Shown piece after piece: positions 27,689-55,665 of a stretch of 64,000 nucleotides of DNA. The DNA comes from a virus, in the IMG/VR virus record IMGVR_UViG_3300038379_000822, positions 1 to 64,000 of that record; one strand, 5' to 3'. A program made the translations under genes and the position numbers. Under the pieces are notes generated by a model. The model was given only the letters and a program-made list of their open reading frames with translations, ran no database searches and was not told where the DNA came from. Within the stretch, counting starts at the first letter, position 1. The number at the start of each line of letters is the position of its first letter.

Positions 27689-27704
27689 TGCTAGCATGCT
27701 AGCA
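27689..27704. promoter_or_regulatory. TGCTAGCATGCTAGCA palindrome (site 3)
   Basis: Perfect 16-bp palindrome followed by CCAG, in the 48-nt gap between plus-strand genes (27679/27728). Confidence 0.6.
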
Positions 27705-27727
27705 CCAGTAACCGCCACGGAGACCCC

Positions 27728-40191: not shown

Positions 40192-40198
40192 GAGCCAC

Positions 40199-42040: not shown

Positions 42041-42079
42041 GGTCGGCGAGCCGAGCGTGCCGAGCCTCAATGCCTGAGC

Positions 42080-43685
42080 TCGGCGGGGCGGCTCGAGCAC
42101 TGAGTCTCGCCGCGCTCGGCTCGAAGCGGCGGTGGTGTTCATGCTGCTTTGCTCGGCACAGGCGCCGGGAGGTCGAGCCCGAGGAAACGGCGCACTCCGT
42201 CACGGGTGCCGAGCGGATTGGCGCAGAGGAAGCGGAGCTTGAGGAAGAGGTGGTCGTGGTCCCGGTACCCACGGCCGCGACGGACCAAGGCTTCCCAGTT
42301 GTTGTTGAGGGCTTCGAGGCGGCCGGTCTTCGGGCGGAGTCGCACGAGGGCGAGGATGCCGTCCCAGTGAGCCAAGAGGCTGTCATGCAGCTTGCGCATC
42401 GGCTGGTTGGCGCGCCTCGCAGTGGCGCGGAGGATGTGATGCATCGCCGTTCCGAGTTCGGCGGCGCGCCGCAGCTTGAGCGCGTCACGCAGAGCCTCCA
42501 CGGTCTGGTAGGCGCGAGCGAGCTTACCGTTGCTGGCGACGAAGAGGGCTCGCAGCTGCTTGCGCTCGGGCTCGGCGAGGCGCGCCCAAGGTCGCAGCAA
42601 CAACCATCGCGCACCACGACCGAGGCCGCGGAGCTCAGCGCCGCCGCGGAAGAAGAGTTCGCGACGCAGTTCGCTGAGCGCTTCACCCGCGCGTTTCATG
42701 ATGTGGAAGGGGTCGTGCACGTAGGCCGCATGGGCGAGGTCCGGCTCCTCACGAATCGCCTTCTTGAAGGGCGCGTACATGTCGGACGCAACGAGCCGCA
42801 CGCGCCGCTTCTGCTTCTTGGTGAGCGTCGCGAGCCACTGCTTCACCGTCTCGGCGTCGCGACCGCGTCCCATCCAGACGGGCTCGCCAGTCTCGAGATC
42901 ACTCACCAGCGTGACGAAGCGCTCCGCGAGGCGGTTGCGTCGGCCGAGCCACTTCTCGTCGAGGCCGACGTGGCGAAGCGGCGGTCGAGGCGTCGACCGG
43001 TCCCAGCGCTCGAGCGCTGCCCGCTCCGCGCGCCTCACCGCATGCCAGTCCACTTCGTGCGCTGCGGCCACGTGGGAGAGCGGTGCCGACGCCGCCTCGA
43101 AGGCAAGCTGCTGCTGAAAAGCTCGGGTCGTTCGCTGCTTCGCGTCCGCCCAAGGCAGCAGCTCCGTGCACGAGCTCCCGCACTGCTTGCACCGGTACCG
43201 CGCCGCCGCGTACTCGATGCTCGCTGGATGACCGCGCAGCGGCAGCTCCTGCCACTGTCGGGGAGGGCGCCGCTCGTGGCACCGCGACTCCGGGACCAGA
43301 GCCCTGCAGTGCCCGCAGCGGGCCGCCCACCGGCGCCGCAACGTGATGACCAGCCGCGCCGACCGCGGCGCCGGCAGCATCGGCCCTACCTCGAGCTCGC
43401 GCCCGTCCGAGCCGACCCACCGGCAGCCCACCACTTTCCACCCCACGTAACCCGCTACCTCGTTCAGAATCCGCAGGCGCTGTCCCATCTCGGCCCTCTC
43501 CTCGGTGCTCAAGAACAACGAGAAGAAGCCACCGCACTTCGGCGGTGTCGATGGGGCAGCGCGCTCACCCGCCGACGCCCACGAACTCAAGCCAACCGAG
43601 CGAGATCAGCCGAGTTCGCGCCGACCCCGATTCGCCCGAAGAGCGGAAAACATCTTCTCGGCGCTCAGTGGTCGCGGTCAGGTTG
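42080..43685 (-). mobile_element. ISL3-family insertion sequence (boundaries approximate)
   Basis: Contains the transposase gene. The candidate imperfect terminal inverted repeats are GCTCGAGCACTGAG (about 42091..42104) and CTCAGTGGTCGCGG (about 43664..43677). No clean target duplication was found by eye. Confidence 0.5.
42139..43488 (-). CDS. ISL3-family DDE transposase (449 aa)
   Basis: N-terminal zinc-finger CGHC...CKQCG, HVGLDEKWLGRRN..FVTLVSDLETGEPVW, VASDMYAPFKKAI, VHDPFHIMKR, and C-terminal TGRLEALNNNWEALVRRGRGYRD. ATG 43488. Confidence 0.85.
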   Translation of the reverse strand: MGQRLRILNEVAGYVGWKVVGCRWVGSDGRELEVGPMLPAPRSARLVITLRRRWAARCGHCRALVPESRCHERRPPRQWQELPLRGHPASIEYAAARYRCKQCGSSCTELLPWADAKQRTTRAFQQQLAFEAASAPLSHVAAAHEVDWHAVRRAERAALERWDRSTPRPPLRHVGLDEKWLGRRNRLAERFVTLVSDLETGEPVWMGRGRDAETVKQWLATLTKKQKRRVRLVASDMYAPFKKAIREEPDLAHAAYVHDPFHIMKRAGEALSELRRELFFRGGAELRGLGRGARWLLLRPWARLAEPERKQLRALFVASNGKLARAYQTVEALRDALKLRRAAELGTAMHHILRATARRANQPMRKLHDSLLAHWDGILALVRLRPKTGRLEALNNNWEALVRRGRGYRDHDHLFLKLRFLCANPLGTRDGVRRFLGLDLPAPVPSKAA

Positions 43686-43744
43686 TCGAATCCGGTCGCT
43701 CGGCGATTGAAGGTCTGCTACCGATGTCCCATGATGGGTGCGTC

Positions 43745-43879
43745 ATGACCGATTACTTCCACGCCAAGGCATACCGGAACGGCAACCTGCACTTACGGTT
43801 CCGTAGCCTGGAGCTACTCGAGCGTTTCAACATGATGGCAGGCGGCCGACGCCTGAGCGGTGCCCGGGAAGGCGATTAA
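43745..43879 (+). pseudogene. Possible C-terminal gene remnant next to the IS (44 codons)
   Basis: MTDYFHAKAYRNGNLHLRFRSLELLERFNMMAGG reads like the conserved C-terminal end of a larger protein, but only a short ORF follows the IS. Confidence 0.3.
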
Positions 43880-43881
43880 CG

Positions 43882-44835
43882 ATGACCGACAAGAAGGATG
43901 ACGAGCCCACCTCTGCGGAGGTGGCGAAGAACAACGACCAAGGGCTCGCCAGCCCCATCCCCGCGGACGGCGGTCCCTGGTCCCTGTTCGGGGCCCCGCG
44001 AGATCCGGCGCAGTTCCGAGAAGCACTCGATGCGCGCCAGCGGGACCAAGAAGAAGAGAAAGTGCGCCAAGGTGCGTCCGATGACATCGTCTCCCGGGCT
44101 GTGCGGGAGCACGCCGAAGCTCGCGCGAAGCGTCTGACGAACGTGAAGCTCGTGCGTGATCTCACCGTCAAGAACACGCACAGGCGCACCGTGAACTGGG
44201 CGCGCGACGAAGCGGACGCGCGCACGACCGATGTGCTGCAGATGAAGCAAGCCCTGGGTCTGCTCGACTATCGCGATCAGCCCGGAACCACTCTCCGTAT
44301 ACTGGAAGATCTGAGCAGCACGGAACTCAGTGATCTCATCCGCGTGCTCTACATGCAGATCTACGTGATGGATGCGCGTCTTCTCGATATGCGGGCGCAT
44401 CATGAAAACAACCAGCGGCCGCCTGTACTGGGCGGCGGCATCTTCCGCGACAGAACCGATGACGATGTGGATAGGCGTGTCGACGAAACTTTCTCGCCAT
44501 ACGAGCGTGTCGACGAAGCTTTCGCGGCATATCGCGCCAAGACCACCGAGCCAGATGCGCCAACCATGACGGCGGCGAATTCACGCCAGGCTGGCCATGA
44601 TGCGGCACATCAGGCTTCGCCTGGTCGCCCCGTGCCGGTTCCGCCGGCACCCGCTTCCATGACGGTGGGCGGTGCCGCATCCGCGTATCAGCGTCGCGCC
44701 GTCGGGGAGGAGCTCGCCGAGCTATTGAAGCGTCAGCAGCTCGCTGGACGACCGGTCGCTCTCGAGCTCGAGCTCATCGCACGGCTGCTCCTGGCTGGAG
44801 CGAGCCTCAACGCCGACCTCGGCGGTCCGCACTGA
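43882..44835 (+). CDS. Hypothetical protein (317 aa)
   Basis: ATG lies 2 nt after the previous stop. Balanced composition. Confidence 0.65.
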   Translation: MTDKKDDEPTSAEVAKNNDQGLASPIPADGGPWSLFGAPRDPAQFREALDARQRDQEEEKVRQGASDDIVSRAVREHAEARAKRLTNVKLVRDLTVKNTHRRTVNWARDEADARTTDVLQMKQALGLLDYRDQPGTTLRILEDLSSTELSDLIRVLYMQIYVMDARLLDMRAHHENNQRPPVLGGGIFRDRTDDDVDRRVDETFSPYERVDEAFAAYRAKTTEPDAPTMTAANSRQAGHDAAHQASPGRPVPVPPAPASMTVGGAASAYQRRAVGEELAELLKRQQLAGRPVALELELIARLLLAGASLNADLGGPH

Positions 44836-44841
44836 GCGAGC

Positions 44842-45126
44842 ATGGCGGCTTCTAGCGCGAAGACGAAGACTGGGTTGCCATCGGGGTTCATCTTCGACGG
44901 CAACCCGTGGCACCCCGACGAGGCGTACTCGGCCTGGAAGAAGACGACGAAGCGGAAGCCTGGGGAACCGCCGAGCATCGACGAGCACGACGCGGTTGCC
45001 GCGATGCGCGCGAGCCCGAAACAGGTCACCTGGCACGCGCTGCGCCGCTTCTGCTCGGGAGACAAGGACGAAGTGGTCGCCCTGCTCTATGCCGCGCTGA
45101 AGCCGGATCGTAAGAGGACCCAATGA
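44842..45126 (+). CDS. Hypothetical protein (94 aa)
   Basis: The ORF starts 7 nt after the previous stop. Confidence 0.55.
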   Translation: MAASSAKTKTGLPSGFIFDGNPWHPDEAYSAWKKTTKRKPGEPPSIDEHDAVAAMRASPKQVTWHALRRFCSGDKDEVVALLYAALKPDRKRTQ

Positions 45127-45572
45127 GCAGCACGTCGTGGTCATCGCTAGTGAAGCAGGTGAGTCAGCCAGATGACGCATTGCGCGTGAGCGTCTCGGGC
45201 GAGTTCCGGTTCCACGTCTTTCGCGAAGGTCTGATCGTTGAGGATCAGCACTTCGCCTGCGAAGTGCACTTCTACACGAGCTGCTTCGCGGGGCACAGCT
45301 GCTCCCAGCAGACTAGCATCAGCGAGTGGTTCTACTGTTCGCTCTGGCGCGAACTCTACCCGGAGCCGCTTGCTGTGGGGCGTCAGACGCTGCCTGGGTA
45401 CCGGCTTCGCGACAGCGACATGCTGTTGCAGCTTGCGCAAGGCATTGCCGCACGGCCGGAGGATGTGACGTTCCTGAACGTATGCCTCATCGGGGATCCG
45501 AGTTTCACGCGTGCATTCAAAGAACTCGTTTATGACTGCAGGCGCGAGAACCGGCACGCTCAGCGCACCTGA
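45123..45572 (+). CDS. Hypothetical protein (149 aa), last gene of the rightward block
   Basis: ATGA overlap. Its 3' end overlaps the convergent giant ORF by 13 nt. Confidence 0.6.
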   Translation: MSSTSWSSLVKQVSQPDDALRVSVSGEFRFHVFREGLIVEDQHFACEVHFYTSCFAGHSCSQQTSISEWFYCSLWRELYPEPLAVGRQTLPGYRLRDSDMLLQLAQGIAARPEDVTFLNVCLIGDPSFTRAFKELVYDCRRENRHAQRT

Positions 45573-48500
45573 AGCGCGGCCATCACACGGAACGGCGACG
45601 GCAGCGCGCTCGTCATCTTGACCGCTGCATCCTGCATCGCCGTGAGCGCCGACTCCGTGACGTAGACGTGCGTGTCGGACGGGTTCTTGGTGATGCGCCC
45701 ATCGAAGCCAATCCGGAACAGCTTCGTGCGCGCAGCGCTATCCGCACGATGCTTCAGGAGCACGCGGCGTCCCGGGTTCTCAACCATCTTCTTGCGACGC
45801 GACGCGCGCTCACCCCCTGCGCTGGCGATGACGATGTCCGTCTCTGCGGACCGGCGACGCTCCGCCCGCACGGCTTCGGCTGCCGACCTGCTGATGCGTA
45901 GCGACATGTTCCCGGTCTCCGGGTCGAGCAGCTCCATCACCGACGCTTCTTCCGCGGAGACGCGCGAGATCTCGGCGGCGAAGCTCAGACTGACGGCCAT
46001 CTGCTGAGCGGCGGCCTCGAGCTGAGCCGGAGTAGCTTCCTCGGTCGTGACCTCCTCGCCAGTGAGCAGCTTGCGCACGATGGCTGCCTGCGACGTGAGC
46101 CATAACCGGCGAGCGTTGGCGCCAGCGACGATGGTTCCTCCGATCTCGCGAGCTTGGCGCTCCATCTGCTCGGGCGCAGGGACGACCGTGGCCAGGTACT
46201 GGAGCATCACGCCCCACACGAGCTTGGTGTTGTCGCCCTTGTCCGCGCGGATGCCCTTGCTCTCGCGTCCGGTGGCGACGACGTACTCCCACATCGCTCG
46301 GCATGCGCGCCGCAGGACGAGTTGCGGGAACGGAACATCAAACCGCGCACGAAATCGCTGCTGGGCGCTCTCATCGAGCGTAATCGTGTGCTTCTTCTGA
46401 TCGATCGCGAAGAACGCGGCGTCGAAGAGCGGGCTGTCCGCGAAGATGTTCACCGGACCGGGGTCGCCCTCTGCGAGAGGCACGTAACGATTCAGGTAGG
46501 CGATCACGAGCGGTCGGATATCGCGCCCGGTCTCGCGGCCGCCGAGGTCGGCGTCTTCCGGAAGCGGCAACGCCTTGGCCTCAAAGCCTGCGCGCAGGAG
46601 AGCCACGTTCTCCTTGGTCGCTGCAAGCTGCTCGCGGTACTCGCGCTTCCCCGTGATCCCGTAGCGGCTGACGATGCGCTCGGTGACCTCGGCATCGCCC
46701 GCGAAGAACTGCTTGCTCAGCGCGTTGAGCTCCGCGAGCTTTCGTTGCTCCTCGAGGTAGAAGGTCAGCTCCTTCTCGAGCAGCTCTCGCCGCTTCTCAA
46801 CGCTCTGCTCGGCGAAGGCGACGTTCTTGCGGCGGGTCTCCTTGCGTTCGGAGCTGAGACGCTGCCCCGTGACGCTGGCCAGCCAGCTCGTGAACCGCTT
46901 CCATTCGTCGGCGCTGCGCTTGTAGATGCTGTGCACCGGATCGTCTTCCGCGAACCATACCGGCAGCTCTTCCGCAAACCCCACGCCCGAGCTCGCCGCA
47001 CCGATGAATGCTTCCGCGAAGGCCTCATCGTCCTTGCGATCTTCGACCCCGCGCCCGCGCTTCATCTCCGTCATGTAGCGAGCCGTCACCAAGAAGGTGT
47101 GGGCGTTGAGCTCGAACCACTTGGCGAGCCAGTCGTCGCTGTGTGCCCGCAGTGCCGCGCCGCGCTCGATGGCGGCCTCGTAGGGCATCCACGTGGGCGT
47201 CGGCCGCTTCCGCTTGCGGAAGTACTCGAGCAGCGTCCCGGTGATGTGCGAGAAGGCCCCGAACCATCGCATGAGCCCATACGTGCGACTCGGTTGAGCG
47301 CTGCCTGCCCAGTCGGCGTAGAGCCGATCGAGCGCGTTCAGCAGCGGCGTGTCCTCGGTATCGGGCCAGATCTGCGCTGGGGCAAGCACGGGGAGCGCCG
47401 GGATCTTGATCTTCTTCTTCTCGGTCGAGAAGACCGGATCAGCGAGCACGATGCCGTCATCGGAGACGTGGCTCGCTCGCGCAAAGAAGGGGAGCAGCGT
47501 ATCGACCCCGATGCCGTAGTTCCGGGGCCATGGATCGTAGAACTCGGCCAAGAACGAGTGCTTGTTGTTGTTCAGCTGGTAGAGCTTCTCGCCGCGCGAC
47601 TCGTCGATGACTTCAGCACCAGGGCGCGCGGTCTTGCTCGTCTTGGTCCATTCGATGCGCTCCGCATCATCGGTTCCGAACATGTCGTAAGCCCAGTCCG
47701 GCGACCCGGCACTCACGTCATCGACCGGGCTATGCGGGACCTCGGCCTGCCGGTGCTCGCCGGCATCGAGATCGACAGCCACGATGCGGTCATCGCGATC
47801 GACGATGGCCACACCGCCGGGTCCGGGCTCGACATCGACGGCGCGGAGGGGAACGTCCTCGCCGATCGTGGGCACCACAGGGACCTCCCAGGGGGGAGGG
47901 GCCTCGGCCACGGGCGCGGGCGGAGCGACTGGAGGAGGAGGCTCTGGACGGCGCGGAGCGGCCGCAGCAGGCGACTGCTGCACTTCGACCGCGTAGGTGT
48001 CGATCACCTGCGGCGAAGGCTTTCTGGGAGCGCTTGGCGGCGGCGAAGCCGGTTGCGCTGGAGCAGTCGAGATGCCGGCCCGGGCCGCAATCTTCTCGAT
48101 GTAGGACAGGATCTCGGTCTGACCGGTGAGGCGTTCGGCCGCGCCAATCTCCTCGAGGTAGCCCTCGGTGGTGGTCACCGACTCATGCCCCAAGATCGCC
48201 TGCACCTCCCGCAAGGGCTTGCCGGCCTCGATCATGGCCGTCGCGGCAAAGTGCCGAAGGGCGTGCGGATGCAGTAGCTTCAGCTCATCGTCCGTGAGCC
48301 CAGCATGCAGTCCGAGCCGTCGAAGCCACGCGCGACTCGCGGGGCGCGTCATGCTTCGCCGGTAGTTGAGCTCGGCGTTCGGCTTGAACTCCTGGTACTT
48401 GCCAGCAGCATTCGCTCCCCAGAGCCGCAGCGGAGGGAAGAGTGGAGCATCGGCGTTCACGACGAGTTCGCGTAGGCGTTCGTCCGCGCGAGGGCGGCGC

Positions 48501-49669
48501 GAATCCACTTCCAATGCCGCCTGAAACTGCAGGAGCGCTTGGTAGGCGACCGAGGGATACGGCAGGATCATGCGCTTCCCGCCCTTGCGCAGCAGCAGCA
48601 CACGCGGCTCCGTGCCCGTCGCATCGAGCCAACCAGGCCACTGAACCCCTTGCCGAGGCGGTGGCTCCGCTCGGCGCAGATTCAGCGTCTCGCTGATGCG
48701 CGAGCCGAGCAGGATCAGGAAGAGGAACATCGCCCGATCACGCAGGCCTTCGGTCGACTTCACGGTATCGAGGTAGGCCAAGATCTTCGGCACGATCTCG
48801 GGTGGCATGCGCTTCATGGCGCGTCGCGACTTCCGTTCACTGGAGAAGCCGCTCGAGAGCCGGCTCTTCAGTCCATCGAAGATGTCGTACTTCACGAGCG
48901 GCGTATCGGGTCCGGTGTTCTCTCCGCGCCCGAGCACCTTCCAGAAACTGGAGAGCGCCGACACCCGCTGCAGGATGGATGCGCGACTCAGGCCGCGCGG
49001 CTGCGGGATCATGTACGTGTAGATGTCGCGGATGGGCTTCCCATCGATGACCGAGGTGGAGAAGATCGCCATGCCGCGATGCTGAGCACGCAACTGCGCG
49101 ATGGTCGGAGTGCGGATGAGCAGACGATGCAGCACCATGCGCCCGAGTCGTGCGGCGAGCTGCTCACCGTTCAGCGCATCGTCGGCTTTGCGCTCCGCGT
49201 CCGTGAACATCCCCTCGATGTCCCGTTGCGTGGCGCGCCCTCCCAGCTTGGTAACGATCTCGAAGACGCGTCGGCGGATGGGATCGTCGCTGTCTTTCGC
49301 GCGCTCGGCGACCAGAGAGAAGGGTCGGTTCGCGAGCCAGTTGACGTACTCCTCGGCATCGGAGCGAAGCACCTGGTGTGGCGCCACCGGGCGTCCATAC
49401 TTGACCGCCAGCCACTCGAAGAACTCCGACAGCGCGCGCGAGTAGGCGATCTTGGTGTGGGGCGAGCGCTGACCGATGTAGCTCTGCCAGGTGTCGCCGC
49501 TGCTGCTCGAGGGCTGCCCGAAGAACGCGTCGAGAGCGGCAAGGCACCGCCGGGCTTCGTCCCGGTTGCCGAAGGCGTCGACCCAGGCCTTCACCGATGC
49601 CTCGTCGCGTTTCCCGCGGAAGATGGCGAGCTCGGGGCGGTTCTTGGTCAGCGCGGTCGATCGGGGCAT
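45560..49669 (-). CDS. Giant tyrosine recombinase/integrase fusion (1369 aa): N-terminal ~520-aa integrase, Pro/Ala linker, ~800-aa C-terminal region of unknown function
   Basis: Integrase signatures: SAM-like AYSRALSEFFEWL...AEEYVNWL, LLGSRISETLNLR, HPHALRHFAATAMIEAG and ILGHESVTTTEGYL. The single uninterrupted ORF has balanced composition throughout. Confidence 0.85.
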   Translation of the reverse strand: MPRSTALTKNRPELAIFRGKRDEASVKAWVDAFGNRDEARRCLAALDAFFGQPSSSSGDTWQSYIGQRSPHTKIAYSRALSEFFEWLAVKYGRPVAPHQVLRSDAEEYVNWLANRPFSLVAERAKDSDDPIRRRVFEIVTKLGGRATQRDIEGMFTDAERKADDALNGEQLAARLGRMVLHRLLIRTPTIAQLRAQHRGMAIFSTSVIDGKPIRDIYTYMIPQPRGLSRASILQRVSALSSFWKVLGRGENTGPDTPLVKYDIFDGLKSRLSSGFSSERKSRRAMKRMPPEIVPKILAYLDTVKSTEGLRDRAMFLFLILLGSRISETLNLRRAEPPPRQGVQWPGWLDATGTEPRVLLLRKGGKRMILPYPSVAYQALLQFQAALEVDSRRPRADERLRELVVNADAPLFPPLRLWGANAAGKYQEFKPNAELNYRRSMTRPASRAWLRRLGLHAGLTDDELKLLHPHALRHFAATAMIEAGKPLREVQAILGHESVTTTEGYLEEIGAAERLTGQTEILSYIEKIAARAGISTAPAQPASPPPSAPRKPSPQVIDTYAVEVQQSPAAAAPRRPEPPPPVAPPAPVAEAPPPWEVPVVPTIGEDVPLRAVDVEPGPGGVAIVDRDDRIVAVDLDAGEHRQAEVPHSPVDDVSAGSPDWAYDMFGTDDAERIEWTKTSKTARPGAEVIDESRGEKLYQLNNNKHSFLAEFYDPWPRNYGIGVDTLLPFFARASHVSDDGIVLADPVFSTEKKKIKIPALPVLAPAQIWPDTEDTPLLNALDRLYADWAGSAQPSRTYGLMRWFGAFSHITGTLLEYFRKRKRPTPTWMPYEAAIERGAALRAHSDDWLAKWFELNAHTFLVTARYMTEMKRGRGVEDRKDDEAFAEAFIGAASSGVGFAEELPVWFAEDDPVHSIYKRSADEWKRFTSWLASVTGQRLSSERKETRRKNVAFAEQSVEKRRELLEKELTFYLEEQRKLAELNALSKQFFAGDAEVTERIVSRYGITGKREYREQLAATKENVALLRAGFEAKALPLPEDADLGGRETGRDIRPLVIAYLNRYVPLAEGDPGPVNIFADSPLFDAAFFAIDQKKHTITLDESAQQRFRARFDVPFPQLVLRRACRAMWEYVVATGRESKGIRADKGDNTKLVWGVMLQYLATVVPAPEQMERQAREIGGTIVAGANARRLWLTSQAAIVRKLLTGEEVTTEEATPAQLEAAAQQMAVSLSFAAEISRVSAEEASVMELLDPETGNMSLRISRSAAEAVRAERRRSAETDIVIASAGGERASRRKKMVENPGRRVLLKHRADSAARTKLFRIGFDGRITKNPSDTHVYVTESALTAMQDAAVKMTSALPSPFRVMAALQVR

Positions 49670-49673
49670 CGTG

Positions 49674-49685
49674 TTATGGAAACGT
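49674..49685 (-). promoter_or_regulatory. Single copy of the IR2 arm (ACGTTTCCATAA in minus sense), 4 nt upstream of the recombinase ATG
   Basis: Plus-strand TTATGGAAACGT at 49674..49685 is identical to the right arm of IR2 (20092..20103). Confidence 0.5.
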
Positions 49686-49737
49686 ACGCGAGTCCGGCTC
49701 CATCCTCAACGGTCACCTGTCGTGATACCGTCAATGG

Positions 49738-50316
49738 ATGCGCCGTGAAGTGCCGATGACCGACGACCAGATCAACCTCTACCGACTCTTCGGCATCGAG
49801 GCGTCCACCATCCTCCCGAACCGCCTCTACATGGGCTCCATCCCGCCCAAGGGGCCTCTCGTCGAACGCGCTGGCTTCACGCATCTGGTGCTCTGCGCCG
49901 AGGAGTACCAACCCCGGAGCACCGAGTTCTCGCCAGGTCTCAAGGTTCTGCACGTTCCGATGCGTGACGACGGGCAGCCGCTTGCGGCCAACGCCGAACG
50001 GCAGATCGAACACGCTGCTGCCGCCGTCGCTGACTACATCGTGCGGGGAGCGCGCGTGCTCGTCACGTGCGCCGCCGGACGCAACCGCTCCGGCATCATC
50101 TGCGCCTTCACGCTCGCTCGAGCCACTCGGATCTCGCCCTGGCGTGCCGGGCTGCGCATCCGTGGCCTGCGTGTGACGCCTGATGGGGCACCCGCGATGA
50201 CGAATCCCGCCTTCAATGCCTTCGCGCTGCGACGCTCCACCCACGATGTCGACGCGGTGCGTTCGTCGCGACGTGCACGACGTGCTCATGACTTCGGCGC
50301 CATCCTACCTAGATAG
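49738..50316 (+). CDS. Cys-based dual-specificity/tyrosine protein phosphatase
   Basis: Active-site loop VLVTCAAGRNRSG (CX5R-S). Upstream VPMRDDG (candidate general-acid loop). Alternative ATG 49756. Confidence 0.8.
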   Translation: MRREVPMTDDQINLYRLFGIEASTILPNRLYMGSIPPKGPLVERAGFTHLVLCAEEYQPRSTEFSPGLKVLHVPMRDDGQPLAANAERQIEHAAAAVADYIVRGARVLVTCAAGRNRSGIICAFTLARATRISPWRAGLRIRGLRVTPDGAPAMTNPAFNAFALRRSTHDVDAVRSSRRARRAHDFGAILPR

Positions 50317-50960
50317 TACCGCGTCTCGTCGTCCCACATCTCGCGCGCAGCGATGAGCTTCATCGATCCTGACTTCGCGAACTTCTGCTCCATCGTTTCG
50401 ACGACCAGCCCGCGCAGAATCCCCGTCACAGCGATGTTGAGCGCCTGTGCTCGGCGCCGCAGCGCGCGATAGGCCCCCGCCGTGACCAGCGCGCGCTCCA
50501 CGTATGGGTACTTCGTCGTGCCGTCGACCCGGTGAACACCTGGATCAATCGCGGAGTACTCCCGCCCGCGATACACCCAGCCCTCCGTCATGTGGCGCGG
50601 CTCCCACGTGCCCATCAAGTACAGGTGCACGATGCTTCGCAGGAGCACACTGCCGTCAACACCGCGATGCATGGCGTACGCCTTCCACTCATCGAAGATC
50701 ACGCGTGGAAACCTGATCTCGACCTGCGGATGCTTGCTCCCAGCCTTCTTGTCACCCAACACTGGTTGCAGTCCCGCTTCCTGGGCTCGGCGTTTCCGGA
50801 GTTCGAATGCATCGCGCAGCGCATCGGGCGCCACGCCCAGACGTTGAGCCAACACCACGAGCTGTTGCTCTTCCAACACTCGCGCAGTGACGGCCGACAC
50901 GCTCAGCTTGTCGATCAACCAGGCTCGGAATCCGTCGAGTGCGTCGCGCCTACCGCCCAT
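50286..50960 (-). CDS. Hypothetical protein (224 aa)
   Basis: Minus-strand ORF whose 3' end overlaps the convergent phosphatase gene by 31 nt. Confidence 0.65.
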   Translation of the reverse strand: MGGRRDALDGFRAWLIDKLSVSAVTARVLEEQQLVVLAQRLGVAPDALRDAFELRKRRAQEAGLQPVLGDKKAGSKHPQVEIRFPRVIFDEWKAYAMHRGVDGSVLLRSIVHLYLMGTWEPRHMTEGWVYRGREYSAIDPGVHRVDGTTKYPYVERALVTAGAYRALRRRAQALNIAVTGILRGLVVETMEQKFAKSGSMKLIAAREMWDDETRYYLGRMAPKS

Positions 50961-51483
50961 ATGCGTGCACCATCGCCGACAACTTCGCCAGCACCATGAT
51001 CACGGCAAGCACCATGACCGCAACGACCACAACACTGAGCACCCAGCGGACTCCCTGGTGCCGTTCCGGCCGCGGTCTCGTCAGGATGCGCTCATGCTTC
51101 GCTGGCCTCATCTCCCGTTTCGCCGCCTGCAGCGCCTTGACCTTGGCCGCCTGCAGCAGCTTCGCCCTCAACTGCTCCCTCTCCGCGCGCATCGTCGGCA
51201 TGATCCGGTGGCGCATTGCATGCAGGAGCTGGAGTGGCCTGGCCCCATCAAGATGGTCCTCCTGGTTCAGCCCTTCGATGCGGCACATCAAGCACCAGCG
51301 CCAGCTTCCACTGGGCGCCTGGTGCCGCATGAGCGTCGCGACGAAGTCGCCGGAGCTGGTCACGAACCGCAGCCCTTCGCGGCATGACCAGACGCCATCG
51401 GTGAGCATCTCGAGCTCCTGCACCCTGTAGCCGCGCCACGCGAACGAGCGCAGCAGAATCTGTCCCTGGCGCATCGCGTTCAC
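50950..51483 (-). CDS. Hypothetical protein with a C-terminal TM anchor (177 aa)
   Basis: C-terminal WVLSVVVVAVMVLAVIMVLA. Confidence 0.6.
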   Translation of the reverse strand: MNAMRQGQILLRSFAWRGYRVQELEMLTDGVWSCREGLRFVTSSGDFVATLMRHQAPSGSWRWCLMCRIEGLNQEDHLDGARPLQLLHAMRHRIMPTMRAEREQLRAKLLQAAKVKALQAAKREMRPAKHERILTRPRPERHQGVRWVLSVVVVAVMVLAVIMVLAKLSAMVHAYGR

Positions 51484-51794
51484 GCCTGGAGCAGGATCTC
51501 CTGCTTCACACGACTGACGTACGACACCTGCGCGGAGCTGAGTAGCGTCTCGATGTAGTGGCCGTCGCCCTCATTGCGCTCTAGGCGCACGTGCAGCATC
51601 GTGAAGTTCGTGCCTACCGAGACATCGACCAGGATGCCGCGGATGAAGGTGCCGGCCACGGGCACGCTTTGGCCGTCGTGCCCGGCGAGCTGAAGCTCGA
51701 GCCTCTCGGTCGGCGCGACCATCGGCTCCCGTAGCTGAAGTAGCACTTCGTGACCCACGAACTCTTCCCACACGTTCTGCTTTTCCATGTTCAT
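51480..51794 (-). CDS. Hypothetical protein (104 aa)
   Basis: ATGA overlaps at both ends. Confidence 0.6.
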   Translation of the reverse strand: MNMEKQNVWEEFVGHEVLLQLREPMVAPTERLELQLAGHDGQSVPVAGTFIRGILVDVSVGTNFTMLHVRLERNEGDGHYIETLLSSAQVSYVSRVKQEILLQA

Positions 51795-52909
51795 CCTCCG
51801 TCGGTTGCTGCCAGGTGTTCGAGTGCATGCCGATCACGATCGGCAATGGCTCCCCATGACCAATGACTCCAGAGATCGCACGCGAACACGTGTTGCGCGT
51901 TCAGCGTCGCCGGATCCTCTGCCTCACGGAGCAGTCGCGGCAACGTCTCGGTGAGCGCGCTGTGGACGGCATCGACGCGGAGCATCGGTGCCTCGGCCCC
52001 CGGGAAGTCATCGATCGGCCCCGTCGCCTCGAGCGCGATGTTCGTGCACATCGACTCCATGGCACTGCCGAACGCGTACTCCCTATGCCCGGTCCGTCGC
52101 GTCAGAATGGCCGGCACGCCCATGCAGAGCCCCTGCAGCGGCACAAGCCCGAATCCCTCCGACCTCGAGGGCTGCACCACGACCAGGGCGCGTCGAATCC
52201 GACGTGCCATCTGACTCGTTGGACATCCATCGTGCAGCACCACCTCGATCGATGGCTCATCTTCGGCTTGGTACAGGTACTCGAGCTGGGCTTCCGGGTT
52301 GCAGATGATGCGCAAGCGTACCTGCCGGCGCAGTCTCGGCTCGAGACGTTTCCATGCGAGGATGAGCTCACGCGTACCCTTGCGTTGATGCGTCGAGCTC
52401 GTCACGTGCAGCGCGATGCGCTCAATCTCGCCGCTCTGGCGCGGTCCCCAGGCATACGGCGAGTACGCACGCGAGACACCATGCCGCACCTTGCGAATGT
52501 CGATATCGCGTCCCTGAGGCATCGCGTTCCAGAGCCCGTTGGCCACGACGTACAATGACGTATGGCTCGGCACGACGATGCCGTGCAGTTTCTCGTTCCG
52601 CAGCAGTCGCTCGAGGTACTCCCGAAGCCGCGGCGCCATCGTCAGCGAGTTCATTGCCAGCAGCAGCCAGATCTTCGTCGGCTGATCGAGCATGTGCACG
52701 ACCTCGACGGTCGCTGGATCGCCGACGACCAACGCGGTCGCGACTGGATCCTCGGACGGTCGCAGCTCTTCCAGGTTCAGCGTATCGACGGCCGTGAACC
52801 CACTGAGGAGGCTCGCCGCATGCAGCGCTTCGCACATGCCGAGCGCCACCTGCCGAAAGGACCCCTGCCCCGCACGCGGTCCATACACCCGCACGCCCGG
52901 TCGCGTCAT
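51791..52909 (-). CDS. Glycosyltransferase (GT-B, GT1/GT4-like)
   Basis: VVQPSRSEGFGLVPLQGLCMGVPAILTRRTGHREY matches the GT1 E..G...E...G.P signature. Confidence 0.8.
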   Translation of the reverse strand: MTRPGVRVYGPRAGQGSFRQVALGMCEALHAASLLSGFTAVDTLNLEELRPSEDPVATALVVGDPATVEVVHMLDQPTKIWLLLAMNSLTMAPRLREYLERLLRNEKLHGIVVPSHTSLYVVANGLWNAMPQGRDIDIRKVRHGVSRAYSPYAWGPRQSGEIERIALHVTSSTHQRKGTRELILAWKRLEPRLRRQVRLRIICNPEAQLEYLYQAEDEPSIEVVLHDGCPTSQMARRIRRALVVVQPSRSEGFGLVPLQGLCMGVPAILTRRTGHREYAFGSAMESMCTNIALEATGPIDDFPGAEAPMLRVDAVHSALTETLPRLLREAEDPATLNAQHVFACDLWSHWSWGAIADRDRHALEHLAATDGG

Positions 52910-54258
52910 GGGCCAAATCCCACGAGTTCATCGGGGATGCACCCGATCTGCTTCAGGCAAGCCAGCGCCGTCGCGCCCACCGTCGGCATGCCGAAGCGCT
53001 GGTAGAGCCCCATCGGGTGGATGCGCTCGACCGGTGGCTCCACACGCCGCATGGCGGCTTGAAGCATCTGCACATCGCCATCTTCCTGGCCGCCGGCGCA
53101 GTCCATCCAGGTCGCTTCGCCCCAGCCGTATCCAGGATGCACGGGCTCCGGCGTCGCCATGTCGATGTCGTAGGTACCGCTCCGCAGTCGTCCATGCCGC
53201 AGCGCCTCGGGCACGTAATCATCGTACGCCTGATCGGGAGGGTAGATGAGCATGTTGCCCGCGCAGACCGCGTCGAACGCCGGGACATCCCACGCCTCAC
53301 CATGCGAAGCGCTGACGTAGATGTTGTTTTGTTCGTGCAGCTGCACGATCTCGTCCGCCGTCATCACACCGACGATGAGCCGCACTCGCGCATCGAAGTT
53401 CTTCGGCGTCCATCCATTCGCCTTGATCGCAGCATCGTGCTCGAGCATGGTCGGGATCGCCGTCTGGAACTTGTAGCCATCCCACTCGCCCCACTCGTGA
53501 GTCTTCACGATGAGCGATGCCCGCTCGGACGGCCTGAACGCGCGCAAGAACCCCCTGATGATGGCCAGTTGGTTCTTGCGCGGCTCCCACTTGCCGATGT
53601 GGTAGAAGCGCTTGCCGTCGGGCACCGGCTTGAAGCCTCGCGGTTGCGCTACCGCACTCGCCCCGCGCGATGGCGAGTACGGCATCGGCACGATGTGCAC
53701 GCGCTGCACGCCAGCGCGGCGAAACACGTCCGCGTTGAAGCGACATGGCACCCAGGTCTGACCGAGACGATTCAAGGTCTCGACCATCTCGTCGGGCATG
53801 TCCAGCCGCTCCCACGAGGTATACACGATGGTGTGCGCCAGCACATGCTTGACCGCTTGCAGCGGCATCTGGCGTAGGTTCGGGTGCATCACCGCTTGCC
53901 GCAGCGATTCGGCGCTATGCAACACCACGTGGTGAATGGCGCAGAGCGTCTTGGCCGCCGACACGCGGGCCAGATGCAGCATGTCGTGCGCCACCTGTGG
54001 GTCCAAGTCATCATCGAGCACGAGATGCCCGGCCGTGCTCGACTTGAGGCGAACCGGCATCCCAACCGTCGCCAGAGCCTGGGCGATCGCACGCGAGTGC
54101 GCTGCCATGCCGTCGTTCGAAGGTCGCCAGTGTGCCGAGAGCTCGATGCACCACGGCAAGTGCGCCTCCGCCCCCACCGCAGCCTTCTCGGTGGAGAAGT
54201 CCGTGCGATCGGCTTCTGCGTTACCCTGAAACTGCGCCAGCTGGTCGGCCAGCGTCAT
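52906..54258 (-). CDS. Glycosyltransferase-like protein (GT-B-like, 450 aa)
   Basis: YHIGKWEPRKNQ and YVSASHGEAWDVPAFDAVCAGNMLIY. ATG 54258 overlaps the upstream stop (ATGA); the track start at 54291 is also possible. Confidence 0.7.
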   Translation of the reverse strand: MTLADQLAQFQGNAEADRTDFSTEKAAVGAEAHLPWCIELSAHWRPSNDGMAAHSRAIAQALATVGMPVRLKSSTAGHLVLDDDLDPQVAHDMLHLARVSAAKTLCAIHHVVLHSAESLRQAVMHPNLRQMPLQAVKHVLAHTIVYTSWERLDMPDEMVETLNRLGQTWVPCRFNADVFRRAGVQRVHIVPMPYSPSRGASAVAQPRGFKPVPDGKRFYHIGKWEPRKNQLAIIRGFLRAFRPSERASLIVKTHEWGEWDGYKFQTAIPTMLEHDAAIKANGWTPKNFDARVRLIVGVMTADEIVQLHEQNNIYVSASHGEAWDVPAFDAVCAGNMLIYPPDQAYDDYVPEALRHGRLRSGTYDIDMATPEPVHPGYGWGEATWMDCAGGQEDGDVQMLQAAMRRVEPPVERIHPMGLYQRFGMPTVGATALACLKQIGCIPDELVGFGP

Positions 54259-54833
54259 CGCTCCATCACCCGGCTCTCGGCGATCTGGCACGCCCAGCCG
54301 CAGCCCTCGGCATCGCAGCGCAGGATGGAGTCGACGGTCACCTCGCCCGCGACGAGCACCACCGTGCTCACGCCCATCGCGGTGACTCGCTTCGGGCCAG
54401 CTTTGCGCTGATCGATGTGGAACTTCCGATGCGACTCGCGCACCAAGATCTGCGAGCTATCCTGCGGGCGCCCCATCGCGATGCATCGCGGGCATACGAA
54501 GACGAAGAACATGTCGAGCTTCGTTGGATCGCTCGGATGCGGTAGATGCGAGATCTCGCAGATGCAGTCCTGATCCGTCTTGACGTAGTAGAGAACCAAC
54601 TTCGGCGACATCGGCGACAGCTGGCGCGTCTGCATGCCGTTGACCTCGACGCCCTTCGGTCCGGCCGTGAGCCCTGCCTTCGCCTTCGCCGCTGCGATCA
54701 TCTGGTCGTCGTACGCTCGACGCGCTTCGGCATCCGCGCGACTCTTCGCCCAGTTACGGTCCTGCGACGACGACGTCGTGCCTCCGCGCACGAGGATCGT
54801 AGGCAGGGGAGCACGCTTCGGTTGTTCCGCCAT
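54255..54833 (-). CDS. Hypothetical Cys-containing protein (192 aa)
   Basis: First gene after the motif cluster at 54842..54881. FVCPRC and CDAEGCGWAC. Confidence 0.65.
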   Translation of the reverse strand: MAEQPKRAPLPTILVRGGTTSSSQDRNWAKSRADAEARRAYDDQMIAAAKAKAGLTAGPKGVEVNGMQTRQLSPMSPKLVLYYVKTDQDCICEISHLPHPSDPTKLDMFFVFVCPRCIAMGRPQDSSQILVRESHRKFHIDQRKAGPKRVTAMGVSTVVLVAGEVTVDSILRCDAEGCGWACQIAESRVMER

Positions 54834-54841
54834 GAAGCATC

Positions 54842-54881
54842 GTGCTACCCGAAAGTGCTAGCACCGTCAAGGTGCTAGCAC
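54842..54881. promoter_or_regulatory. Cluster of GTGCTAGCAC palindromes (site 5): two perfect units plus one degenerate
   Basis: GTGCTAGCAC occurs at 54855..54864 and 54872..54881, with GTGCTAC at 54842..54848. The cluster fills the 49-nt gap between minus-strand genes. Confidence 0.55.
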
Positions 54882-54882
54882 G

Positions 54883-55236: not shown

Positions 55237-55243
55237 CGGCCGA

Positions 55244-55663: not shown

Positions 55664-55665
55664 GG

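What the first reader, a model, noticed from the sequence alone, without database searches (positions are those of the whole stretch)
45560..49669. A 1369-aa tyrosine recombinase fused to an ~800-aa domain of unknown function
Typical phage integrases are 350-550 aa. Here the complete integrase module (core-binding region, R...HxxR...H...Y signature ending at about aa 510) continues through a Pro/Ala-rich linker (aa about 525-590). It then enters a large, non-repetitive, well-balanced region with no motif I can recognise. It is a single ORF with no internal stop and no obvious internal SD/ATG junction. The extra domain might supply excisionase or directionality, target selection, replication or partition functions. 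The gene converges on, and overlaps by 13 nt, the last gene of the rightward block.
Basis: partly seen in the sequence, partly recalled or inferred. Interest (0 to 1): 0.65.

Follow-up and report, generated by a model that had tools for sequence, protein, structure and literature searches.

The report
Giant tyrosine recombinase with fused partner
This is a real 1369-residue gene in which a working Xer/Cre-type DNA recombinase is joined to a 740-residue partner module of unrecognised fold. The pairing is kept across a whole group of uncultivated, roughly 100-140 kb phage-like elements and has not been described before as far as I could find.

Summary
Window 45560-49669 (-) is one uninterrupted 1369-aa ORF with a uniform coding signal, and it overlaps the convergent neighbour by 13 nt.

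- **Recombinase module.** Residues 1-520 form a two-domain Xer/Cre-like tyrosine recombinase. R324, K362, H469, R472, H495 and Y504 are invariant in 64 relatives.
- **Linker and C-module.** Residues 521-640 are a variable Pro/Ala-rich linker. Residues 641-1369 fold confidently (pTM 0.84) but match nothing in Pfam, NCBIfam, PDB or viral structure libraries.
- **Fusion is real and old.** A profile of the C-module found only 173 proteins among 1.84 billion representatives. Nearly all full-length hits have the same recombinase-plus-C-module layout.
- **Split version.** In one rare distant lineage (two contigs) the modules are two adjacent genes, split exactly at the linker. The C-module is therefore a dedicated partner of the recombinase.
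- **Context.** The gene sits at a convergent junction beside a conserved glycosyltransferase/DnaJ block. In the closer subfamily it is paired with a divergent dual-specificity phosphatase.
- **Likely role.** It occurs only on metagenomic contigs of 140 kb or less, never in cultured phages or plasmids and never next to host genes. I think it acts on the element's own DNA (multimer resolution or circularisation) rather than as a classical integrase, but the role and the target site are unproven.

Verdict: a new variant of a known kind.

The parts
45560..49669 (-). Whole gene: 1369-aa giant tyrosine recombinase (stop codon at 45560-45562)
   Evidence: single ORF, uniform GC3; 63 full-length homologs
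49490..49669 (-). aa 1-60: conserved, family-specific, helical N-terminal extension
   Evidence: conservation; helices at aa 12-50, pLDDT about 85
48830..49489 (-). aa 61-280: core-binding (SAM-like) domain, with an inserted helix/strand segment at about aa 128-200 that looks winged-helix-like (inference from secondary structure only)
   Evidence: Phage_int_SAM_1 at aa 67-115, E=2e-4; secondary structure; Foldseek alignments to XerD/XerH/Cre span both domains
48110..48829 (-). aa 281-520: catalytic domain with R324, K362 (RKGGK hairpin), H469-x-x-R472, H495 and nucleophile Y504. It has a family-specific insertion at about aa 385-445 and a conserved post-Tyr helix at aa 512-530
   Evidence: all six residues invariant in 64 sequences
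48158..48160 (-). Codon of the catalytic tyrosine Y504
   Evidence: aligns with XerD Y279; invariant
47750..48109 (-). aa 521-640: variable Pro/Ala-rich acidic linker (26 P, 20 A, pI 4.6). Only its start (APRKPSPQVIDTY) is conserved. In the split lineage this is where the gene is divided
45563..47749 (-). aa 641-1369: C-module of unrecognised fold. It comprises a beta-rich acidic subdomain (about 641-770), a helical subdomain (771-935), a long helical hairpin (about 940-1031), a conserved basic helical subdomain with the SELVMRRAARAMWE motif (1036-1205), a variable region (1206-1340) and a conserved tail LPSPFRVMAAL (1356-1366). Residues invariant across the superfamily: P760, Q766, W802, R841, H843, W851, D910, P911, R1120, R1121, R1124, E1170
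   Evidence: AF2 pLDDT 81.5, pTM 0.84; no match; conservation; pI
49670..49737 (.). 68-bp divergent intergenic region shared by the recombinase and the phosphatase gene (presumed promoters). No palindrome or repeat was noticed in it
   Evidence: sequence; inference
49738..50316 (+). Dual-specificity (Cys-x5-Arg) phosphatase, 192 aa, transcribed divergently from the recombinase. A conserved neighbour in the closer subfamily
   Evidence: DSPc E=1.4e-8; C111-x5-R117 and D77 invariant in 5 loci; pair intact in 14 related loci; absent beside the distant subfamily
50286..54833 (-). Conserved block always adjacent to the recombinase/phosphatase pair: 192-aa, 461-aa (glycosyltransferase-like), GT4 'conflict-system' glycosyltransferase, 104-, 177- and 224-aa proteins. 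A DnaJ-domain protein lies further upstream at 57253-57876
45123..45572 (+). Last gene (149 aa, unknown) of the opposing arm. Its 3' end overlaps the recombinase 3' end by 13 nt, forming the convergent junction

Best explanation
**What it is.** The gene encodes a catalytically competent, 'simple' (Xer/Cre-type, no arm-binding domain) tyrosine site-specific recombinase. It has become permanently joined, through a flexible Pro-rich linker, to its own dedicated accessory subunit.

**How it most likely works.**
- The N-terminal 520 residues bind a core site and carry out cleavage and strand exchange through Y504. The fold and catalytic residues are shown; the activity is inferred.
- The 740-residue C-module has an unrecognised, mostly helical fold. 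Its first half is acidic, it has a long helical hairpin, and its second half is conserved and Arg-rich.
- I infer that the C-module is a built-in control or architecture factor that decides when, or on which partner sites, the recombinase synapses. This would be comparable in logic to accessory proteins of Xer systems, to recombination directionality factors, or to the C-terminal domains of large serine recombinases. In a rare lineage the same module is supplied in trans from the next gene.

**Biological role (inferred, least certain).**
- The protein is a core gene of a clade of uncultivated phage-like elements of about 95-140 kb.
- It most likely acts on the element's own DNA, resolving replication multimers or circularising the genome as Cre does for P1. 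Insertion into a host chromosome is less likely.
For: **Shown.**
- Active-site residues R324, K362, H469, R472, H495 and Y504 are invariant in 64 sequences and align with XerD's catalytic residues.
- The AF2 model of aa 1-540 (pLDDT 87, pTM 0.83) matches XerD, XerA, XerH and Cre over both domains (Foldseek prob 1.0, TM up to 0.63 on the target). No protelomerase appears in the top 50.
- No arm-binding domain is found.
- The C-module is a real folded unit (pLDDT 81.5, pTM 0.84) under strong constraint. It has 20 invariant residues in the family and 12 across the superfamily, including R841, H843, D910, R1120, R1121, R1124 and E1170.
- It is found only with this recombinase. There were 173 hits in 1.84 billion representatives. 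Full-length hits are 1100-1620 aa with the module after about aa 600, and 7 of 7 distant ones carry Phage_integrase.
- Split version: L110 and L111 (41% identical to each other) encode a 545- or 498-aa recombinase. A stop, a Shine-Dalgarno-like sequence and a new start then open a separate 629- or 558-aa C-module gene. The break falls just after the conserved APR..VID motif and the Pro-rich linker is missing.

**Supporting the role.**
- The gene is embedded at least 10 kb deep in conserved element genes on both sides in 9 annotated loci. No adjacent non-coding att-like region or tRNA is present.
- Its 3' end abuts a convergent junction in 6 of 7 annotated loci, and in the window this junction coincides with the cumulative GC-skew maximum.
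- Neighbours are replication and DNA-metabolism genes (SNF2 helicase, RuvC, ThyX, methylases).
- No member lies on a contig longer than 140,124 bp in four collections. Many contigs cluster at 95-140 kb.
- Among 185,579 reference genomes only two MAG contigs carry it (48 and 123 kb). On both, local tblastn finds the element's own conserved genes beside it.
- IMG/VR holds 8-9 members as viral contigs.
Against: - No recombination site was identified, so there is no direct evidence for any reaction.
- The element's topology, lifestyle and host are unknown. I could see only 10 kb either side of each relative and 64 kb of the 111.6-kb contig.
- No structural phage genes were recognised in the window, so 'phage' rests on IMG/VR classification and PHROG matches.
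- Missing integrated copies is weak evidence. Prophages break metagenome assemblies, and the hosts are uncultivated.
- An IS insertion and CRISPR arrays on these elements suggest long residence in cells. This fits an episome but fits a prophage equally well.
- The invariant polar residues of the C-module could mean an enzymatic activity rather than a regulatory or architectural role.
- The first half of the C-module is acidic (pI 4.6-5.8), which argues against DNA binding there. It does not say what that half does bind.
Confidence: 0.45

Rival explanations
1. It is the lysogeny integrase of a temperate phage. The N-terminal module recombines attP with a host attB. The C-module replaces the missing arm-binding domain and accessory factors by choosing the target or setting integration-versus-excision directionality.
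For: - PHROG integrase families are the best viral matches (phrog_1 E=6.8e-23).
- An ISL3 insertion sits in the element, and extra copies elsewhere in the sample (depth 55x versus 32x) suggest time spent inside a host.
- Phage-borne CRISPR arrays also fit a long-term association.
- Two relatives were binned with bacterial MAGs (Pirellulales, Pseudomonadota).
- An accessory module acting with the recombinase is what a directionality factor would look like.
Against: - No arm-binding domain is present.
- No non-coding region or tRNA lies next to the gene in the window or in 12 related loci. The one downstream gap, in L106, is a CRISPR array.
- Both flanks are conserved element genes in every locus seen.
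- No member lies on a contig longer than 140 kb or beside recognisable host genes.
- The gene lies among replication and DNA-metabolism genes, not in a recognisable lysogeny module.
Confidence: 0.3
2. It is a DNA invertase or isomerase. It flips a segment of the element's genome, either to switch gene expression or to drive replication amplification as FLP does in the yeast 2-micron plasmid.
For: - Relatives show two arrangements. The glycosyltransferase block lies either upstream and co-directional (window, L024, L025, L117, L120, L004) or downstream and convergent (L002, L027-L033, L106, L123), while the phosphatase-recombinase pair stays intact.
- Simple tyrosine recombinases such as FLP, Cre and Rci can invert DNA.
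Against: - No inverted repeats above the shuffled-sequence expectation occur at the borders of the recombinase/phosphatase cassette in 5 loci.
- The contigs of the source run show one arrangement only. The listed 'joints' rest on about 21-nt chance matches.
- The long inverted repeats in the window (17.5-18.0 kb versus 25.0-26.0 kb) are 71%-identical paralogous genes 20 kb away.
- The two arrangements may simply be old evolutionary rearrangements.
Confidence: 0.1
3. The C-module has a job of its own that is unrelated to controlling recombination, for example an enzyme, or a virion or host-interaction domain. It would be fused only for co-expression or co-delivery, as in polyvalent phage proteins.
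For: - Invariant polar residues (R841, H843, D910, R1120, R1121, R1124, E1170) could form an active site.
- The module is larger than any known recombinase accessory factor.
- A flexible linker joins two autonomous units.
Against: - The module is never seen with any other partner, or alone away from the recombinase gene, among 1.84 billion representatives.
- Polyvalent proteins typically shuffle their domains, and this pair does not.
- No similarity to any enzyme fold was found.
Confidence: 0.12
4. The long ORF is an artefact: a hidden frameshift or stop, or an assembly chimera, joins two genes.
For: Two distant relatives really do have two genes.
Against: - An independent assembly gives the same sequence with 0 mismatches and 0 gaps.
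- GC3 is uniform.
- 63 close and dozens of distant homologs from many samples have the same single ORF.
- The linker is translated in frame and its start is conserved.
Confidence: 0.01

Closest known systems
XerC/XerD/XerH/XerA chromosome- and plasmid-dimer resolvases
   Same: - Best profile matches: TIGR02224 XerC E=4.4e-22, XerD E=6.1e-19, XerA E=1e-16.
- Best structural matches: 1a0p XerD, 4a8e XerA, 5jk0 XerH.
- Two-domain simple recombinase with the same catalytic residues and no arm-binding domain.
- The gene sits at a convergent, terminus-like junction.
   Different: - Scores are far below the family cut-offs (79 versus 335 bits).
- The recombinase module is about 520 aa, against about 300, because of an N-terminal extension and two insertions.
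- It carries a 740-aa C-module.
- It is encoded on a phage-like element rather than a chromosome, and no dif-like site was found.
Cre recombinase of phage P1
   Same: - A simple tyrosine recombinase encoded by a large (94 kb) phage that is maintained without integration, where it circularises the genome and resolves dimers (established knowledge).
- The fold match covers both domains, with target TM up to 0.63.
   Different: - Cre is 343 aa and needs no accessory domain or protein.
- There is no sequence relationship beyond the superfamily level.
- The target site here is unknown.
Lambda-type phage integrases with Xis/recombination directionality factors
   Same: A tyrosine recombinase that works with a dedicated accessory protein. 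PHROG integrase families match the catalytic domain.
   Different: - No arm-binding domain, and no adjacent attP-like region.
- The accessory module is roughly ten times the size of typical Xis proteins, has an unrecognised fold, and is normally fused.
Large serine recombinases (phiC31, Bxb1 integrases)
   Same: Analogy of design only (established knowledge). In those enzymes a catalytic domain is followed by a large C-terminal region, including a coiled-coil, that controls site choice and directionality. Here a long helical hairpin (aa about 940-1031) sits inside the C-module.
   Different: Their catalytic family and mechanism are unrelated, and the C-terminal folds are unrelated too (no match).
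Protelomerases (TelN, TelK, TelA, ResT)
   Same: Enlarged tyrosine-recombinase-like enzymes with extra domains, encoded by phage-plasmids that do not integrate (established knowledge).
   Different: - No Pfam telomere-resolvase hit.
- No protelomerase among the top 50 structural matches.
- The H-x-x-R and second-His recombinase signature is intact.
- No large palindromic target lies next to the gene.
'Large' tyrosine recombinases of Tn554-like and strand-biased circularising integrative elements
   Same: These are the only things the literature search returned under 'large tyrosine recombinase'.
   Different: - From my own knowledge, unchecked here, those proteins are about 600 aa or less.
- They sit in small integrative elements of Gammaproteobacteria and Firmicutes.
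- I ran no direct comparison with them. The only indirect evidence is that tblastn of the window protein against PLSDB plasmids found one short catalytic-motif hit.

Membership tests
Tyrosine recombinase superfamily (Pfam PF00589) | Catalytic residues R...K...H-x-x-R...H/W...Y in order | tested here: met
   R324, K362, H469, R472, H495 and Y504 are all invariant in 64 sequences. They align with XerD's R148, H244, R247, H270 and Y279. Pfam score is 67.5 bits against a cut-off of 27.1.
Tyrosine recombinase superfamily (Pfam PF00589) | Two-domain fold: helical core-binding domain plus catalytic domain | tested here: met
   The AF2 model of aa 1-540 (pLDDT 87) matches XerD, XerH and Cre over both domains at Foldseek probability 1.0.
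Tyrosine recombinase superfamily (Pfam PF00589) | Site-specific cleavage and strand exchange at a defined DNA site | not testable with these tools
   No target site was identified. This needs biochemistry or in vivo assays.
XerC / XerD equivalogs (TIGR02224, TIGR02225) | Score at or above the curated equivalog cut-off over the full model | tested here: not met
   78.8 bits against a cut-off of 335 (XerC), and 68.4 against 330 (XerD). Only the C-terminal motif region aligns well.
Lambda-type (arm-binding) phage integrases | N-terminal arm-type DNA-binding domain | tested here: not met
   No arm-binding Pfam family was hit. The N-terminal 60 residues are helical and family-specific. Structural matches are to simple recombinases.
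Lambda-type (arm-binding) phage integrases | Gene adjacent to attP; integrated copies flanked by host DNA, often at a tRNA or tmRNA gene | tested here: inconclusive
   No non-coding region or tRNA lies beside the gene in the window or in 12 related loci. No host-flanked copy or contig longer than 140 kb was found. Absence in metagenome assemblies is weak evidence.
Protelomerases (telomere resolvases) | Sequence or structural similarity to TelK/TelN/TelA/ResT, with a palindromic target next to the gene | tested here: not met
   No Pfam hit. No such structure appears in the top 50. No large palindrome lies near the gene.
Any described family for the C-terminal module | Significant sequence or structural match to a curated domain or a solved or predicted structure | tested here: not met
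   Pfam, PHROGs and NCBIfam give nothing. A PDB profile search gives a best E of 0.18. Foldseek against PDB gives best E=8.8e-3 with TM below 0.11, and against BFVD best E=5.3e-2. AlphaFold DB was not available.

The most novel reading that the evidence does not exclude
These proteins define a new class of 'large tyrosine recombinases', the tyrosine-family counterpart of large serine recombinases. A dedicated 80-kDa module of novel fold, with its own conserved Arg/His/Asp/Glu site, gives a simple Xer/Cre-like enzyme a new built-in capability. That could be self-contained control of directionality or partner-site choice, or a second catalytic step. The clade of about 100-140 kb phages would use it for a genome-maintenance step with no described equivalent.
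Probability: 0.3. Interest if true: 0.8.

Novelty: new variant of a known kind. Interest (0 to 1): 0.6.

Why it matters
- **An unusual design.** Simple tyrosine recombinases (Cre, FLP, Xer) are thought of as compact enzymes of 300-420 aa whose control comes from separate host or accessory proteins. Here the enzyme keeps an obligate partner module of about 740 aa, usually fused, through deep divergence (down to about 17-23% identity). The module has no recognisable relative by sequence or structure.
- **A missing function.** The recombinase apparently needs something that no characterised system supplies in this way. It is also a signature gene for an unstudied clade of large, high-GC environmental phage-like elements that carry their own CRISPR arrays.
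- **Practical interest.** If the module sets site choice or directionality, the system could yield a self-contained recombinase for large DNA, of interest for genome engineering.
- **A natural experiment.** The split lineage offers a way to test the partnership directly.

Tried and rejected
1. **Assembly or frameshift artefact.** Rejected. The independent contig is identical, the coding signal is uniform, and the fusion is conserved.
2. **Known domain in the C-terminal part.** Nothing was found in the following searches:
   - Pfam on the window protein and on 11 family members at E up to 10.
   - PHROGs and NCBIfam.
   - PDB by phmmer and by profile.
   - Foldseek of a confident model against PDB and BFVD. 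The top hits are HEAT-like helical scaffolds with TM below 0.11, which are not meaningful.
3. **Protelomerase.** Rejected.
4. **Relatives in cultured phages or plasmids.** None beyond short catalytic-motif hits.
5. **Self-inverting cassette.** Suggested by the two gene orders among relatives. No inverted repeats above the shuffled null occur at the cassette borders in 5 loci, so rejected for lack of support.
6. **Palindrome GGTGCTAGCATGCTAGCACC (3 copies) as a recombination site.** Each copy sits directly after a stop codon, which looks like a terminator or RNA hairpin. It is fully palindromic and far from the gene. Set aside.
7. **Rearrangement junctions in the source run.** Only assembled contigs are available. 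All listed joints rest on about 21-nt matches, so they are uninformative.
8. **Phosphatase as an obligate partner.** It is conserved beside the recombinase in the closer subfamily. The small genes beside two distant-subfamily recombinases are not phosphatases, and the split loci lack one in the few kb seen. It is therefore a frequent neighbour, not a defining part.
9. **tmRNA in L106 as an integration site.** It is a genuine tmRNA but lies 8 kb away inside element genes, so it is not adjacent to the recombinase.
10. **Literature.** Three full-text searches found no description of tyrosine recombinases over 1000 aa or of this fusion.
11. **Structural phage genes in the window.** None recognised.
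Full report
**1.

Window 45560..49669 (minus strand) is a single ATG-initiated ORF of 1369 codons with one terminal stop. GC at third codon positions is 0.74-0.90 in every 100-codon block, including the proposed linker, as expected for one continuous gene in this 65% GC sequence. The long antisense ORFs in the region, such as 46154..48277 (+), are the usual high-GC shadows.

An independently assembled Logan contig of the same freshwater-metagenome run covers 43616-55999 with no differing letter and no gap, and its gene translates to the same protein.

**2. Anatomy**

The N-terminal part is a tyrosine recombinase.
- Pfam Phage_integrase scores E=1.7e-18, and a weak SAM-like core-binding hit covers aa 67-115.
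- PHROG integrase families match aa 208-506.
- Alignment to XerD places R324, H469, R472, H495 and Y504 on XerD's catalytic residues.
- K362 lies in the RKGGK hairpin. All six residues are invariant in an alignment of 64 family members.

An AlphaFold2 model of aa 1-540 is confident (pLDDT 87.4, pTM 0.83). Its best matches among solved structures are XerD, archaeal XerA, XerH and Cre. These alignments span both the core-binding and catalytic domains (probability 1.0, target TM up to 0.63). FLP, Tn1549 Int and IntI rank lower, and no protelomerase appears in the top 50.

NCBIfam ranks XerC, XerD and XerA first, but far below their cut-offs (79 versus 335 bits).

There is no arm-binding domain. 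The recombinase module is nevertheless about 520 aa rather than about 300, for three reasons:
- a conserved helical N-terminal extension (aa 1-60);
- an inserted helix/strand segment in the core-binding domain (about aa 128-200, winged-helix-like by secondary structure only, which is an inference);
- an insertion in the catalytic domain (about aa 385-445).

Residues 521-640 are Pro/Ala-rich (26 P and 20 A in 120 residues), acidic and poorly conserved.

Residues 641-1369 form conserved blocks (641-980, 1061-1200, 1341-1369) separated by variable stretches.

**3. The C-terminal module is a folded unit that resembles nothing on file**

Modelled with the family alignment, aa 630-1369 gives pLDDT 81.5 and pTM 0.84. 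Its parts, in order:
- a beta-rich subdomain;
- a helical subdomain;
- a 50-residue helix paired with another long helix (aa about 940-1031);
- a second helical subdomain carrying the motif SELVMRRAARAMWE;
- a less confident variable region;
- a small C-terminal sheet ending in the conserved tail LPSPFR.

Searches for relatives of this module all failed.
- Foldseek finds no match at E of 1e-3 or better in PDB or in BFVD. Best TM is below 0.12, and the top hits are HEAT-like scaffolds.
- Sequence and profile searches of PDB, Pfam (on 11 members, E up to 10), PHROGs and NCBIfam give nothing.

The first half of the module is acidic (pI 4.6-5.8) and the second half mildly basic (pI 8.4-9.5). The recombinase module is basic (pI about 10).

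Twelve residues are invariant even when the most distant relatives (17-23% identical) are included: P760, Q766, W802, R841, H843, W851, D910, P911, R1120, R1121, R1124 and E1170. This constraint fits a specific binding or catalytic site rather than a passive spacer.

**4. The fusion is the rule, and a rare split shows the parts are partners**

A word-indexed search found 63 homologs of 1085-1618 aa at 30-44% identity. All of them have a C-terminal region of 539-875 aa.

A profile of the C-module alone, scored against 1.84 billion representative proteins, found only 173 hits at E of 1e-3 or better. Full-length hits are 1100-1620 aa, with the module starting at about aa 600-700. Seven distant hits (E from 1e-16 to 1e-49) were checked, and all have a Phage_integrase domain at about aa 300-525. 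Most short hits begin at arbitrary points inside the module and are contig-edge fragments.

The exception is informative. P0124 (558 aa) and P0183 (629 aa) are 41% identical to each other. They share a genuine N-terminus (MTKKK...) about 20 residues before the module's first conserved motif.

On their contigs a separate recombinase gene of 498 or 545 aa ends just after the conserved APR..VID motif that opens the linker in the window protein. After 8 or 17 nt containing a Shine-Dalgarno-like sequence, the C-module gene starts with ATG or GTG. The Pro-rich linker is absent.

This fused-versus-split pattern is classical evidence that two proteins act together. It also shows the linker is the true domain boundary.

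**5. Context**

The window is the non-structural part of a phage-like genome; the source contig is 111,584 bp. Recognisable genes in the window:

| Feature | Window coordinates |
|---|---|
| TnpB/Cas12f-like gene with a 12-repeat CRISPR array | 129-2504 |
| DUF1643 protein | 2732-3364 |
| C5 DNA methyltransferase | 3795-5156 |
| N6 DNA methyltransferase | 10510-11424 |
| VWA and MoxR ATPase pair | 12041-14613 |
| ThyX | 40175-41122 |
| ISL3 insertion sequence | 41998-43645 |
| DnaJ-domain protein | 57253-57876 |
| Two glycosyltransferases | 51791-54291 |

Several genes hit PHROG families of unknown function strongly, but no capsid, portal, terminase or tail gene was recognised. IMG/VR holds 8-9 full-length relatives as viral contigs of 61-140 kb.

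Around the recombinase the gene order is strikingly conserved.
- A Cys-x5-Arg dual-specificity phosphatase lies immediately upstream and divergent in the window and in 14 distinct related loci. Its catalytic Cys, Arg and Asp are intact in the five loci aligned.
- A block of p192, a 461-aa glycosyltransferase-like protein, a GT4 'conflict-system' glycosyltransferase and p224 is always adjacent.
- The same holds in the distant subfamily, where an SNF2 helicase lies upstream and the DnaJ gene follows the block.
- The phosphatase is not found beside the two distant-subfamily genes examined.

Two arrangements exist. In one the block is upstream and co-directional (window, L024, L025, L117, L120, L004). 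In the other it is downstream and convergent (L002, L027-L033, L106, L123).

In 6 of 7 annotated loci the recombinase's stop codon sits at the point where two opposed gene arms meet (L025 has three extra genes). In the window this point coincides with the maximum of the cumulative GC skew. That pattern is terminus-like, although it may only reflect gene-strand bias.

**6. Integrase or not?**

Evidence against a classical integrase:
- There is no arm-binding domain.
- No non-coding stretch or tRNA lies beside the gene in the window or in 12 related loci.
- The single downstream gap, in L106, turned out to be a second CRISPR array.
- Both flanks are conserved element genes everywhere.
- Among one genome for each of 185,579 species, only two MAG contigs (48 and 123 kb) carry the gene. 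On both, tblastn finds the element's own conserved genes beside it.
- Across four collections no member is on a contig longer than 140,124 bp, and many lengths cluster at 95-140 kb. This is what complete extrachromosomal genomes would give.

Evidence for a resident lifestyle, which is compatible with either an episome or a prophage:
- An IS insertion is present, with extra copies elsewhere in the sample (depth 55x versus 32x).
- CRISPR arrays occur on two family members.

The evidence therefore leans against chromosomal integration but does not exclude it.

**7. Most likely mechanism**

*Shown:* the gene encodes an intact Xer/Cre-type catalytic machine together with a constrained, autonomous partner module that is never found without it.

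*Inferred:* the N-terminal module binds simple core sites and exchanges strands through Y504. The C-module acts in cis (in trans in the split lineage) as a built-in accessory factor governing synapsis, partner choice or directionality. By analogy with Cre in P1 and with Xer at dif, the substrate would be the element's own DNA, either multimers produced by replication or recombination or the incoming linear genome.

I give this composite about 0.45. Within it, I rate the 'recombinase plus obligate partner' part much more certain (about 0.8) than the biological role.

The rivals are:
- a lysogeny integrase with a built-in targeting or directionality module (0.3);
- an invertase or genome isomerase (0.1);
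- a C-module with an unrelated job (0.12);
- an artefact (0.01).

**8. Comparison with what is known**

[quoted passage not shown] It is not a member of the XerC/XerD equivalogs, the arm-binding integrases or the protelomerases; a defining feature was tested and not met for each.

In design it recalls two things. One is a recombinase with a dedicated accessory factor. The other, more loosely, is the large serine recombinases, whose big C-terminal region with a coiled-coil controls site choice and direction.

Full-text searches found no description of tyrosine recombinases over 1000 aa or of this module. Sources name these proteins only 'site-specific recombinase XerD/XerC' or 'integrase'.

**9. 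Verdict**

The finding is real and reproducible across many samples, and I found no prior description of it. It is a new variant of a known kind: a tyrosine recombinase with an obligate, usually fused, partner module of about 80 kDa and unrecognised fold. It is a signature gene of an uncultivated clade of large phage-like elements. The target site, the reaction and the role of the partner module remain to be shown.

Noticed in passing
window 129-2504: A CRISPR array of 12 repeats lies at 1647-2487. Eleven are exact copies of the 36-nt repeat GCTCCACCGGCTCTCCGTTGGAGTAGTCGTTGCGAC, with unique 35-40-nt spacers. It lies directly beside a TnpB/Cas12f-like gene (NCBIfam guided_TnpB E=4e-24, Cas12f2 E=5.5e-11; Pfam Cas12f1-like TNB domain). 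The listed 581-aa ORF overlaps the array. An in-frame ATG at 1619 would give about 496 aa. This is a candidate miniature type V CRISPR-Cas system carried by the element.
   Followed up: partly
window 1-132 and 2604-2735: An exact 132-nt direct repeat brackets the Cas12f-like gene and its array (spacing 2603 nt). The left copy touches the window edge, so it may be longer. It could be a duplication, the ends of a mobile unit, or an assembly effect.
   Followed up: no
L106 6967-7810 (also L029, L119): A related element carries a different CRISPR array: 12 repeats of CTCGCAGGCGAGTTCGGAACGCGGGACGAGCGCCAG. It lies immediately downstream of its giant recombinase, at the convergent junction. CRISPR arrays therefore recur in this group of elements.
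   Followed up: partly
L106 14799-15150 (-): A full-length tmRNA gene (Rfam RF00023, 94.6 bits, E=1.7e-35; ARAGORN tag peptide ENDNAQLVAA) lies inside a block of element genes 8 kb from the recombinase. It is probably element-encoded rather than a host integration site.
   Followed up: partly
window 49738-50316 (+): A dual-specificity Cys-x5-Arg phosphatase with an intact active site is kept divergently next to the recombinase in 14 related loci, but not beside the distant subfamily. Its substrate is unknown. Relatives of this fold act on proteins and on nucleic-acid 5' ends.
   Followed up: partly
window 41998-43645: An ISL3-family insertion sequence (transposase 42139-43590, minus strand) is inserted in the rightward gene arm. 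Its depth in the source run is about 55x against about 32x for the element, so further copies exist in the community, possibly in the host genome. It also breaks the Logan assembly at this point.
   Followed up: partly
window 5662-5684, 9860-9882, 27683-27705: The perfect 20-nt palindrome GGTGCTAGCATGCTAGCACC occurs three times, each directly after a stop codon. It looks like a terminator or RNA hairpin, or an operator.
   Followed up: no
window 17162-18202 (-) and 24995-26168 (+): Paralogous genes rich in Ala/Gly/Pro codon repeats (period 9-12 nt) lie in inverted orientation (arms 17485-18017 versus 24999-25981, 71% complementary). They flank the divergent strand-switch region near 19.7 kb. 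A tandem gene duplication is also present (24995-25294 versus 25612-25911, 87%).
   Followed up: no
window 19171-19253: ARAGORN calls an 83-nt tRNA-Val(CAC) here. Rfam's tRNA model does not reach its gathering score anywhere in the window, and the call overlaps a candidate ORF (19054-19713, minus strand). The tRNA call is doubtful.
   Followed up: partly
window 50286-54833 and 57253-57876; L002, L024, L025, L106-L109: A GT4 'conflict-system' glycosyltransferase, a second glycosyltransferase-like protein of about 460 aa and a DnaJ-domain protein form a block conserved across the whole group of elements. Together with ThyX and several DNA methyltransferases in the window, this hints at DNA or surface modification.
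   Followed up: no
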